This document shows, piece after piece, positions 24,734 to 26,544 of a stretch of 64,000 nt of DNA (positions are counted from its first letter, which is position 1; every line of letters starts with the position of its first letter). This stretch comes from Dictyostelium discoideum (lineage: Eukaryota), in contig CM000151.3 in NCBI GenBank assembly GCA_000004695.1, forward strand, positions 1,152,001 through 1,216,000, in the 5' to 3' direction. A model generated the notes under the pieces. The model saw only the letters and a list, made by a program, of their open reading frames with translations. It was not told the origin of the DNA and did not search any database. The translations under genes were made by a program, and so were the position numbers.

Positions 24734-26544
24734 TTATTTTTGAATTGGTAAAATATTAATAGAAACACCTGGATCACCAATTGTTGCTTCCCAACTTTCG
24801 AAACCATTTGAAGATAAAGTTAATTTGAGATTTGATAATTGATCGATTGTAGTATCTTGTTTTAAAAGTGTAATAACACAACCACCACCACCAGCACCAG
24901 TTAATTTTGTATGAAAACCTAATGATTTTGTAATTGAAACGATTGTATCAATTGAAGAATGACCAACACCATAACAACCAGATAATAGATGTTGATTCAT
25001 GTCAAACATAAGATCCATAGTTTGTTGAAGTTTTTCATAATCTTTATCGGTATGATATTGATTGAAAGATTCAATACATTGACTTGAGATAGTGTCAATT
25101 AAATTGGAGACTGGGTCAATCAATGTTGGATATAATTTCGAACGTTGAATTACGCCTTCTACCAAAGTTTTAGTTGAACGACTAACTCGAGTATTTGTAA
25201 TCAATATACGTAATGGTGGTATACCATTCTCTAATATCTTATACCCATTCTTACGAGTGAATGTCAATGCTTTACCAAATGTTGCAACTGCATTATCAAT
25301 ACCCGATGGTGTACCATGCATAATCTTTTCACCCTGTAATGACCATAAATTAATTAAATTTAATTGTTCATTACAAATTTGTTGCTGTTGTCCTTGTCCA
25401 CCAATACATTGTTTACAACCACCACAAATATAGGTATCAAATGCTTTTAATAAACCAGCACAAATACTAACACAAAATGATGCTGATGATCCTAAACCTG
25501 CACCAATTGGTAAATCTGATGTAATCTTTATATTGTATGCTTTTGTACATTTTGTTAAAGCACAAAATAAAAATAAAAATGTATGAATTCCTTTAATATC
25601 AATAATTTTATTTAATTCTTGTTGAAATAATTCACTACATTCAATTGGTTTTAATATATCAATATCTATTTATTTTATTTTTTTAAATAAAAAATATATA
25701 TATATATATATATATATATATATATATATATATATATATATATATATATATATATATATATATATATATATATATATATATATATATATATATATATATA
25801 TATATATATATATATATATATATATATATATATATATATATATATATATATATATATATATATATATATATATATATATATATATATATATATATATATA
25901 TATATATATATATATATATATATATATATATATATATATATATATATATATATATATATATATATATATATATATATATATATATATATATATATATATA
26001 TATATATATATATATATATATATATATATATATATATATATATATATATATATATATATATATATATATATATATATATATATATATATATATATATATA
26101 TAATTAGTAAATTATATATATTTTGTTGTTGTTGCTGTTGTTGTTGCTATTGTTGTAGTTGTAATTACCATTTGGGAAATGATCTAATTTTTTAAATTCA
26201 TCTAAACTCCATTCTCTAACTCCAAAACCCGCTAAATCAGGGAAATCCAATAATAATGTATTGTTTGTATTTGGTGTAAATGTTACTGTTGTTCTTAATG
26301 ATAAGGCTGATGCGATCGCTGTTTTCTCTAATACAACTGCATGTTCTCCAAATAAAATGATTTTACCTGGTGCTGATACTATTTTTTTTTTTTTTTTTTT
26401 TTTTTTTTTTTTTAATATTGTTTATTTTGATTAGTAATTTTAATAATAATAATAATAATAATAATAATTTTTGATTGGTTTGAAGGGTAGAAAAAAAAAA
26501 AAATTATTTTTACCTTGAATGATATTGTCTTGGTTTGATATCAT
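24734..26544 (-). CDS. Mevalonate kinase (GHMP kinase family), 390 aa. Three exons: 26544..26514, 26378..26169, 25665..24734.
   Basis: [10 protein letters not shown]|[15 protein letters not shown] gives the GHMP N-terminal motif. [14 protein letters not shown] is the ATP-binding P-loop. [18 protein letters not shown] and [15 protein letters not shown] are also present. Together these are a near-colinear match to human MVK. Introns are GTAAAA..ATAG (phase 1) and GTAATT..AAATAG (phase 1). Confidence 0.85.
25695..26101. repeat. Uninterrupted (TA)n dinucleotide tract of about 200 units inside intron 2 of the mevalonate kinase gene
   Basis: Pure alternating TA is directly visible over about 406 bp. 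It lies in the 503-bp intron 25666..26168. Confidence 0.95.

What the first reader, a model, noticed from the sequence alone, without database searches (positions are those of the whole stretch)
25695..26101. About 200-unit pure (TA)n tract inside an intron of mevalonate kinase
An uninterrupted 400-bp alternating TA run is long even by Dictyostelium standards. It makes up about 80 % of a 503-bp intron in an essential isoprenoid-pathway gene. Such tracts are prone to cruciform extrusion and length instability. They are likely to be polymorphic between strains, and they are a classic site of sequence mis-assembly.
Basis: seen in the sequence. Interest (0 to 1): 0.5.

Follow-up and report, generated by a model that had tools for sequence, protein, structure and literature searches.

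The report
Hypervariable TA repeat in mevalonate-kinase intron
A perfect 409-base run of alternating T and A fills most of a properly spliced intron of the Dictyostelium discoideum mevalonate kinase gene; it is an extreme but ordinary microsatellite whose length ranges from 9 to 409 bases among strains.

Summary
Window 25694-26102 is an uninterrupted 409-nt alternating A/T run (about 204 units). The next longest in the window is 17 nt.

It lies in the 503-nt second intron (26168-25666, minus strand) of a gene whose spliced product is identical to D. discoideum AX4 mevalonate kinase. A cDNA-type contig from a public run joins the exons exactly at the predicted junctions.

The predicted polymorphism is real:
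- A second, 99.9 % identical D. discoideum assembly has 87 nt at the same site, while four other long repeats nearby keep their lengths.
- Other isolates have 17, 13 and 9 nt.
- D. citrinum, D. firmibasis and D. purpureum have no long tract.
- D. cf. discoideum has an independent 81-nt TA run on the other side of a conserved TACTAAT motif.

That motif is the likely branch site. If so, the tract puts it 438 nt from the 3' splice site, against 23-51 nt in orthologous introns without a downstream expansion. The tract contains no AG, and as RNA it is predicted to fold into a ~200-bp hairpin that restores a normal structural distance. This may explain why expansion is tolerated.

Verdict: a slippage-driven microsatellite of a known kind. 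The exact reference length is unverified.

The parts
25694..26102 (.). Perfect (TA)n microsatellite, 409 nt (~204 units), self-complementary on both strands
   Evidence: predicted hairpin -241.6 kcal/mol as RNA and -150.1 kcal/mol as DNA
25666..26168 (-). Intron 2 of the mevalonate kinase gene, 503 nt, GTAATT...AATAG
   Evidence: the cDNA contig L009 lacks exactly this segment
26103..26109 (-). TACTAAT, putative branch-point sequence, immediately 5' of the tract. The branch A at 26104 is 438 nt from the 3' splice-site G
   Evidence: It is the only WCTAAY in the intron. It is conserved in 10 of the 11 intron-2 sequences compared, the window included (TACTAAC in D. firmibasis). The first AG downstream is always the 3' splice site. 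The same motif is conserved in intron 1. ACTAAT is the commonest branch-like hexamer in D. discoideum introns (PMC2483917). Its use as branch point is not mapped.
26113..26121 (.). Short second TA run (9 nt) on the 5' side of TACTAAT. This is the seed that has expanded to 81 nt in D. cf. discoideum
25666..25693 (-). 3' tail of intron 2 after the tract (TTTTTATTTAAAAAAATAAAATAAATAG), ending in the acceptor AG
26123..26162 (-). (AAC)n-like trinucleotide repeat in the 5' part of intron 2, in frame with exon 2
26169..26378 (-). Exon 2 of mevalonate kinase (carries the [14 protein letters not shown] motif)
24734..25665 (-). Exon 3 of mevalonate kinase, through the stop codon
26514..26544 (-). Exon 1 of mevalonate kinase (start codon at 26544)
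26379..26513 (-). Intron 1 (135 nt). TACTAAT lies 52 nt from the 3' splice site, with a variable poly(A) run between them

Best explanation
The tract is a real TA-dinucleotide microsatellite inside a U2-type GT-AG intron of the D. discoideum mevalonate kinase gene.

Inferred origin: a short (TA)4-8 seed is present throughout the D. discoideum/citrinum clade. It grew by replication slippage and hairpin-mediated expansion in the lineage of the laboratory (NC4/AX-type) strains. The result is a hypervariable locus with alleles of 9 to 409 nt.

Why it is tolerated: it is removed by splicing, so it does not touch the protein. Three properties make it splicing-neutral even though it sits between the putative branch site TACTAAT and the 3' splice site:
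- (UA)n contains no AG, so the authentic AG stays the first one downstream of the branch site.
- (UA)n contains no competing splice signals.
- (UA)n is self-complementary, so any length folds back on itself. This keeps the structural branch-to-acceptor distance in the normal range.

Status of each step:
- Shown: the tract, the intron, the splicing, the length differences between genomes, and the motif conservation.
- Inferred: the slippage mechanism, the branch-site identity, hairpin formation in vivo, and that 409 nt is the true length in the reference strain.
For: Tract and significance.

Gene and exon model:
- Exact identity to XP_645383.1.
- TIGR00549 at 222.7 bits.
- Continuous alignment to rat and human MVK structures across the junction.
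- Orthologue alignment without a gap at HFPN|DIDILKP.

Splicing: L009 has 0 mismatches over 1144 nt to the spliced mRNA and lacks both introns.

Length variation at the orthologous position: 409 (window), 87 (L001), 17 (L002), 13 (L010/L011, contig seen in 7 samples), 9 (L003).

L001 against the window over 7.8 kb:
- 7 mismatched columns plus small homopolymer indels.
- Four other perfect trinucleotide repeats (99, 45, 69, 75 nt) have identical lengths.
- Only the TA tract differs, by 322 nt.

Sister species: no long tract in D. citrinum, D. firmibasis or D. purpureum. D. cf. discoideum has an independent 81-nt expansion on the 5' side of TACTAAT.

Branch motif:
- It is the single WCTAAY in 10 of the 11 intron-2 sequences and in 8 of the 9 intron-1 sequences (the window included in both counts).
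- It lies 23-57 nt from the acceptor everywhere except L001 (116) and the window (438).
- ACTAAT is the top branch-like hexamer in D. discoideum introns (PMC2483917).

Structure: the RNA MFE is a ~197-bp hairpin, z = -20. The graph distance from branch A to acceptor is 14-22 steps in the window and in L001. The linear distance is 23-51 nt in alleles with no long tract downstream of the motif.

Background literature:
- SSR richness and slippage in D. discoideum (PMC7466956; PMC9234386; PMC3188802).
- (TA)n cruciforms above ~20 units and their instability (PMC9666358).
Against: - The length in the reference strain rests on one assembly. A nearly identical genome has 87 nt, so 409 may be wrong, or a property of one stock.
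- The strain behind the cDNA contig L009 is unknown. Correct splicing has therefore not been shown specifically for the 409-nt allele.
- TACTAAY is only marginally enriched window-wide (37 observed against 27.3 expected; 3 of 100 shuffles reach 37). Only about a third of D. discoideum introns have WCTAAY, so a weak branch site downstream of the tract cannot be excluded.
- AU-only helices are weak per base pair. In vivo they may form many short hairpins rather than one long one.
Confidence: 0.85

Rival explanations
1. The tract is real, but its 409-nt length is an assembly artefact of the reference, or the 87 nt of the other assembly is. A perfect repeat near read length cannot be sized reliably, so the difference between the two near-identical genomes reflects technology rather than biology.
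For: The window and L001 are 99.9 % identical and differ by exactly 322 nt of pure TA. Four other long SSRs agree in length. The remaining differences are homopolymer lengths and a GGGGG/GTGTG patch, which are typical sequencing or polishing noise. Simple repeats are stated to be difficult to assemble (PMC3188802).
Against: From my own knowledge, cloning in E. coli and collapse during assembly usually shorten long (TA)n rather than lengthen it. Independent wild isolates show real variation at the site (9, 13, 17 nt), and one of these alleles is seen in contigs from 7 samples. The locus is therefore variable whichever of the two values is right.
Confidence: 0.25
2. The tract is functionally coupled to splicing. 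TACTAAT upstream of the tract is the branch point actually used, and the (UA)n hairpin is required to bring it to the acceptor, as in a structured distant-branch-point intron. Under this reading, tract length or perfection tunes mevalonate kinase expression.
For: The TACTAAY motif is conserved, and an AG-free zone runs from it to the acceptor. The linear distance of 438 nt collapses to a predicted 14-22 steps. In yeast, stems between branch point and 3' splice site are required when the distance exceeds ~50-60 nt (PMC3239191). Human distant branch points are marked by AG exclusion zones (PMC1431707).
Against: The branch point is not mapped. Alleles without the tract already have a normal spacing, so the tract is not needed for splicing; at most it is tolerated. 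There is no expression data. Variation from 9 to 409 nt among strains argues against selection on length.
Confidence: 0.3
3. The tract acts at the DNA level as a functional element: a DNA-unwinding element or origin, a nucleosome-excluding sequence, an intragenic TATA array, or a programmed fragile site.
For: Only generic properties of long (TA)n: easy melting and cruciform formation.
Against: It is absent or very short in other D. discoideum isolates and in all sister species at the same position, so no conserved function can depend on it.
Confidence: 0.03
4. The excised intron is a long perfect dsRNA hairpin that is processed by Dicer-like enzymes into (UA)n small RNAs.
For: A ~197-bp perfect hairpin is predicted.
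Against: No small-RNA data. The products would be of very low complexity. The tract is not conserved.
Confidence: 0.03

Closest known systems
AT/TA dinucleotide microsatellites of A+T-rich genomes (D. discoideum SSRs; Plasmodium falciparum microsatellites)
   Same: Perfect head-to-tail 2-nt repeat in non-coding DNA. Length is polymorphic between isolates. Slippage is the accepted origin (PMC7466956, PMC9234386, PMC6644851 as listed).
   Different: It is far longer than usual. Dinucleotide repeats are comparatively rare in dictyostelids, and only three D. discoideum SSRs exceed 250 nt (PMC3188802).
Expanded (TA)n repeats and AT-rich fragile sequences (the WRN-dependent TA expansions of mismatch-repair-deficient human cancers, and the common-fragile-site (TA)n tracts cited with them)
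   Same: Same sequence. Its length is well above the ~20-unit threshold at which (TA)n forms cruciforms. Large length jumps occur between closely related genomes (PMC9666358).
   Different: Nothing here shows fork stalling, breakage or helicase dependence. The host cells are not known to be repair-deficient.
Distant-branch-point introns with a structured spacer (S. cerevisiae COF1 and UBC13) and human AG-exclusion-zone introns
   Same: A putative branch motif lies far from the acceptor. The interval is AG-free, and a stable stem predicted between them shortens the structural distance (PMC3239191; PMC1431707).
   Different: The stem is a simple repeat rather than an evolved complementary pair of segments. 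It is absent in most alleles. The branch point and any dependence on structure are untested.
Intronic polymorphic repeats near 3' splice sites that modulate splicing (e.g. the CFTR intron 8 TG/T tract; from my own knowledge)
   Same: A variable simple repeat lies just upstream of an acceptor.
   Different: No evidence here that length affects splicing. The repeat is self-complementary, unlike TG/T tracts.

Membership tests
Dinucleotide microsatellite (SSR) | Tandem head-to-tail copies of a 1-6 nt unit, far beyond chance | tested here: met
   409 nt of perfect TA. Markov expectation about 1e-194.
Dinucleotide microsatellite (SSR) | Copy-number polymorphism at the same locus between individuals or strains | tested here: met
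   409, 87, 17, 13 and 9 nt in D. discoideum genomes with matching flanks.
U2-type GT-AG spliceosomal intron | GT...AG boundaries that restore the reading frame | tested here: met
   GTAATT...AATAG. The spliced CDS is 1173 nt in frame and equals XP_645383.1.
U2-type GT-AG spliceosomal intron | Removed from mature RNA | tested here: met
   cDNA-type contig L009 joins the exons exactly, with 0 mismatches in 1144 nt. The tract length in that strain is unknown.
U2-type GT-AG spliceosomal intron | Branch point used in lariat formation | not testable with these tools
   Only a conserved TACTAAT motif is seen. Lariat mapping is needed.
Cruciform-forming / fragile (TA)n sequence | Perfect inverted symmetry, length above ~20 units | tested here: met
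   204 units. The DNA hairpin is predicted at -150.1 kcal/mol. The threshold is from PMC9666358.
Cruciform-forming / fragile (TA)n sequence | Cruciform extrusion, fork stalling or breakage in vivo | not testable with these tools
   No experimental data available.
Structured distant-branch-point intron (yeast COF1/UBC13 type) | Branch point more than ~50-60 nt from the 3' splice site | tested here: inconclusive
   The motif-based distance is 438 nt, but the branch point is not mapped, and weak A-rich alternatives lie 3' of the tract.
Structured distant-branch-point intron (yeast COF1/UBC13 type) | Stable stem between branch point and acceptor that shortens the structural distance; no exposed AG in between | tested here: met
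   A ~197-bp hairpin, graph distance 14-22. The first AG after the motif is the acceptor. These are predictions only.
Structured distant-branch-point intron (yeast COF1/UBC13 type) | Splicing depends on the structure | not testable with these tools
   Needs minigene mutagenesis.
Mevalonate kinase (GHMP kinase superfamily), host gene | Full-length match to the equivalog model above its curated cut-off, plus GHMP N and C domains | tested here: met
   TIGR00549 at 222.7 bits against a cut-off of 163. PF00288 and PF08544 both match. 1kvk/2r3v at E about 1e-68.

The most novel reading that the evidence does not exclude
The (UA)n tract sits between the branch point actually used (TACTAAT) and the acceptor. 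Splicing of the long alleles works only because the repeat zips into a hairpin. Self-complementary, AG-free microsatellites would then be a class of insertion that can expand almost without limit in the one part of an intron that is normally length-constrained. This would extend structure-assisted 3' splice-site recognition, so far demonstrated in budding yeasts, to Amoebozoa.
Probability: 0.25. Interest if true: 0.5.

Novelty: new member of a known kind. Interest (0 to 1): 0.25.

Why it matters
Practical value:
- It flags a spot in the D. discoideum reference where the sequence length should not be trusted without read-level support.
- It offers a very informative strain or stock marker. Near-identical laboratory-type genomes differ by 322 nt here while other long repeats nearby are unchanged.

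Biological value:
- It is a natural allelic series (9, 13, 17, 87 and 409 nt) of a self-complementary spacer placed between a conserved branch-like motif and the acceptor of a housekeeping-pathway gene.
- In a genetically tractable organism this allows two tests. One is how far a branch point can be from its 3' splice site. The other is whether RNA structure compensates for that distance.
- It could also show how a very SSR-rich genome with a low mutation rate copes with a cruciform-prone tract.

None of this changes the basic classification: it is a microsatellite.

Tried and rejected
- Window-wide enrichment of TACTAAY: 37 observed against 27.3 expected, and 3 of 100 shuffles reach 37. This is too weak to support the branch-site claim alone, so I relied on cross-species conservation and published statistics.
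- A home-made ORF-continuity intron finder on the window gave 26 candidates, but it was noisy. It overshot the acceptor of this very intron and picked coding AAT repeats. I did not use it for a branch-distance distribution.
- Look-up of the 48-aa read-through ORF of exon 2 plus the intron start, to fish short-read contigs ending in the tract: not on record.
- Eichinger et al. 2005 (PMC1352341) is not held. I used secondary sources for SSR statistics.
- I tried to link assemblies GCA_054883475, GCA_054859355, GCA_054859385, GCA_054859235, GCA_054859145 and GCA_054859325 to a paper. A 2025 preprint (10.1101/2025.10.22.684067) describes Nanopore/Flye assemblies of nine D. discoideum strains including two cryptic-species strains. 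It may be the source, but it gives no accession, so the strain and technology of L001 remain unknown.
- tRNA and Rfam scans of the window found nothing, so no RNA gene hides in the intron.
- The reading that the (AAC)n stretch plus the tract is coding was rejected. The frame hits a stop just before the tract, the cDNA lacks the segment, and orthologues and solved MVK structures align across the junction without an insertion.
- The reading of a conserved DNA-level functional element was rejected because the tract is absent in sister species and in most isolates.

Full report
**1. The observation**

Window 25694-26102 is a perfectly alternating A/T run of 409 nt, about 204 TA units. TRF reports 25694-26121 at period 2, 214 copies and 97 % matches, because it joins the neighbouring 9-nt run.

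- The window is 22.5 % G+C. Even so, the next longest alternating run is 17 nt, and the next longest perfect microsatellite of any unit is (ATT)41 at 123 nt.
- A first-order Markov model of the window expects about 1e-194 runs of this length.

**2. The gene and the intron**

On the minus strand, three exons (26544-26514, 26378-26169, 25665-24734) give a 1173-nt CDS.

- The 390-aa product is letter-for-letter the D. discoideum AX4 mevalonate kinase XP_645383.1 / EAL71443.1 / Q86AG7.
- It scores 222.7 bits on TIGR00549 (cut-off 163) and carries both GHMP domains.
- It aligns end to end with rat and human mevalonate kinase structures. There is no insertion at the exon 2/3 junction.
- Dictyostelid orthologues align without a gap at HFPN|DIDILKP. 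Their length differences lie in a poly-Q/G patch of exon 3.

Intron 2 is 26168-25666: 503 nt, GTAATT...AATAG. The tract is 81 % of it.

There is direct RNA-level support. The Logan contig L009 from run SRR24091727 is flanked by Illumina adapter sequence. It matches 1144 nt of the window's spliced mRNA with no mismatch and lacks both introns, joining CCAAATG|ATATTG. The intron assignment is therefore confirmed. The caveat is that the tract length in the strain behind that run is unknown.

**3. The same site in other genomes**

Using the exact proteins of the cluster, I fetched the locus from eight other assemblies and two short-read contigs. The table gives intron 2 length and the longest alternating A/T run.

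| Source | Intron 2 (nt) | Longest A/T run (nt) |
|---|---|---|
| Window | 503 | 409 |
| D. discoideum GCA_054883475 (L001) | 181 | 87 |
| D. discoideum GCA_054859355 (L002) | 98 | 17 |
| D. discoideum GCA_054859385 (L003) | 74 | 9 |
| Logan contigs L010/L011 (one seen in 7 samples) | partial | 13 |
| D. cf. discoideum (L004) | 166 | 81, at a different place (see section 4) |
| D. citrinum (L005 / L006) | 92 / 80 | 13 / 7 |
| D. firmibasis (L007) | 120 | 5 |
| D. purpureum (L008) | 84 | 5 |

L001 is essentially the same genome as the window over 7.8 kb:

- There are 7 mismatched columns and a handful of 1-7 nt homopolymer indels.
- All four other long perfect trinucleotide repeats in the stretch (99, 45, 69, 75 nt) have identical lengths.
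- The only large difference is a 322-nt gap of pure TA.

L002 and L003 are about 4 % divergent wild-type haplotypes.

I cannot decide whether 409 versus 87 in the two near-identical genomes reflects rapid change in laboratory stocks or an error in one assembly. I could not establish the strain or technology of L001.

From general knowledge, cloning in E. coli and assembly collapse tend to shorten long (TA)n rather than lengthen it. On that basis I lean towards both values being real.

**4. Anatomy relative to splicing signals**

Immediately 5' of the tract lies TACTAAT (26109-26103, minus strand).

- It is the only WCTAAY in the intron.
- It is present at the corresponding place in every D. 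discoideum, D. cf. discoideum and D. citrinum copy, and as TACTAAC in D. firmibasis. The rest of the intron is barely alignable between species.
- Intron 1 of the same gene also has a single conserved TACTAAT in 8 of the 9 sequences compared, window included.
- Irimia and Roy (PMC2483917) found ACTAAT to be the commonest branch-like hexamer of D. discoideum introns: 18.7 %, or 31.9 % for WCTAAY, over 17,300 introns. Those introns have median length 103 nt, mean 143 nt and s.d. 158 nt.

I therefore treat TACTAAT as the probable branch site, with the reservation that it is not mapped.

In the 16 intron copies with no expansion downstream of the motif, it lies 23-57 nt from the acceptor. In L001 it lies 116 nt away, and in the window 438 nt. 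In every case the first AG downstream is the real acceptor.

In D. cf. discoideum the long TA run (81 nt) lies on the other, 5' side of TACTAAT. It grew from the short TATATATA seed that the window also has at 26113-26121. The two seeds flanking the motif have thus expanded independently in different lineages.

**5. Predicted structure**

- As RNA, the intron folds into a hairpin of about 197 bp. MFE is -241.6 kcal/mol, against -173.7 ± 3.4 for shuffles (z = -20).
- As DNA, the tract gives -150.1 kcal/mol.
- Counting steps along the backbone and across base pairs, the distance from the branch A to the acceptor is 14-22 in both the window and L001. This holds with or without forcing the motif single-stranded.
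- That is similar to, or below, the 23-51 nt linear distances of alleles with no long tract downstream of the motif.

This mirrors what has been shown experimentally for yeast introns with distant branch points (COF1, UBC13). There a stem between branch point and acceptor is required and shortens the structural distance (PMC3239191). It also mirrors the AG-exclusion-zone signature of human distant branch points (PMC1431707). Here it is a prediction only.

**6. Most likely explanation**

This is a slippage- and hairpin-driven TA microsatellite that has run away in one lineage. It is tolerated for three reasons:

- It is intronic.
- It is free of AG.
- It is self-complementary, so it does not move the acceptor out of reach of the branch site.

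It fits what is known of D. discoideum:

- 11-14 % of the genome is SSRs, indels outnumber base substitutions, and SSRs are variable between strains (PMC7466956; PMC9234386).
- Dinucleotide repeats are comparatively rare, and only three SSRs exceed 250 nt in the reference (PMC3188802). This tract is therefore at the extreme end of the distribution.

The literature on (TA)n covers cruciforms above ~20 units, fork stalling and large expansions in repair-deficient cells (PMC9666358). That makes instability plausible, but nothing here tests DNA-level behaviour.

**7. Rivals**

- (a) The length in the reference, or in L001, is an assembly artefact. This is possible (about 0.25) and is compatible with the main explanation.
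- (b) The hairpin is functionally needed for splicing of long alleles, or tunes expression. This is possible for the first part (about 0.3). Short alleles show the tract is dispensable, and the 9-409 nt spread argues against selection on length.
- (c) A DNA-level functional element, or (d) a Dicer substrate. Both are unlikely, because the tract is missing from sister species and most isolates.

**8. Novelty and score**

The feature is a new, extreme example of a well-known kind. It sits in a published reference genome.

What this analysis adds:
- Confirmation of splicing.
- An allelic series across genomes.
- The observation that the repeat occupies the branch-site-to-acceptor interval and is predicted to neutralise its own length.

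Interest is modest (0.25). It would be higher (about 0.5) if the hairpin-bridged distant branch point were demonstrated.

**9. Dead ends**

See 'tried and rejected': marginal window-wide motif enrichment, a noisy intron finder, an ORF look-up that was not on record, an unavailable paper, no tRNA or Rfam hits, and no provenance for the assemblies.

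Noticed in passing
window 26123-26162 (minus strand; 5' part of intron 2): The intron begins with a G+C-containing (AAC)n-type trinucleotide repeat (…CAACAACAACAGCAACAACAACAA…). It is in frame with exon 2 and would read [15 protein letters not shown] before a stop. This is the kind of repeat D. discoideum normally has in coding sequence. It varies between strains (L002, L003) and is absent in D. cf. discoideum and D. citrinum. It could be a relic of, or raw material for, exon extension.
   Followed up: partly
L004 3505-3585 (D. cf. discoideum GCA_054859235): An independent 81-nt TA expansion in the same intron, but on the 5' side of the conserved TACTAAT motif. It grew from the short seed that the window has at 26113-26121.
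   Followed up: partly
window 26382-26413 (intron 1 of the same gene): A 32-nt homopolymer (A on the gene strand) between TACTAAT and the acceptor of intron 1 varies in length: 32 (window), 27 (L001), 22 (L002), 17 (L003). The branch-to-acceptor distance therefore ranges from 37 to 52 nt within the species.
   Followed up: partly
window 26092-26121: The putative branch motif sits at the centre of a local palindrome (ATATATATAATT-TACT-AATTATATATAT). In the MFE fold this palindrome pairs and partly buries the branch A. Forcing it open costs only ~3 kcal/mol.
   Followed up: partly
window 26661-26668 vs L001: GGGGGTTGG in the window reads GTGTGTTGT in the otherwise near-identical assembly GCA_054883475. 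It looks like a sequencing or polishing error in one of the two.
   Followed up: no
window ~25385-25420 (exon 3; columns 180-203 of alignment A1): A Gly/Gln-rich patch after the conserved CGGCKQC motif of mevalonate kinase is the only length-variable part of the protein among dictyostelids. Proteins are 390-404 aa within the discoideum/citrinum group.
   Followed up: no
window 18657-18776; 32500-32622; 5087-5200; 46146-46247: Other very long simple repeats in the window: a ~120-nt T-rich homopolymer-like run (89 % matches) and perfect (ATT)/(TAA) arrays of 102-123 nt.
   Followed up: no
L001 4770-7122 vs L002 4680-5925: The neighbouring Cullin_binding (DCN1-like) gene is called as 245 aa in the wild isolates. 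In GCA_054883475 it is called as a 288-aa product spanning 2.35 kb with no Pfam hit on record. This is probably an annotation difference.
   Followed up: no
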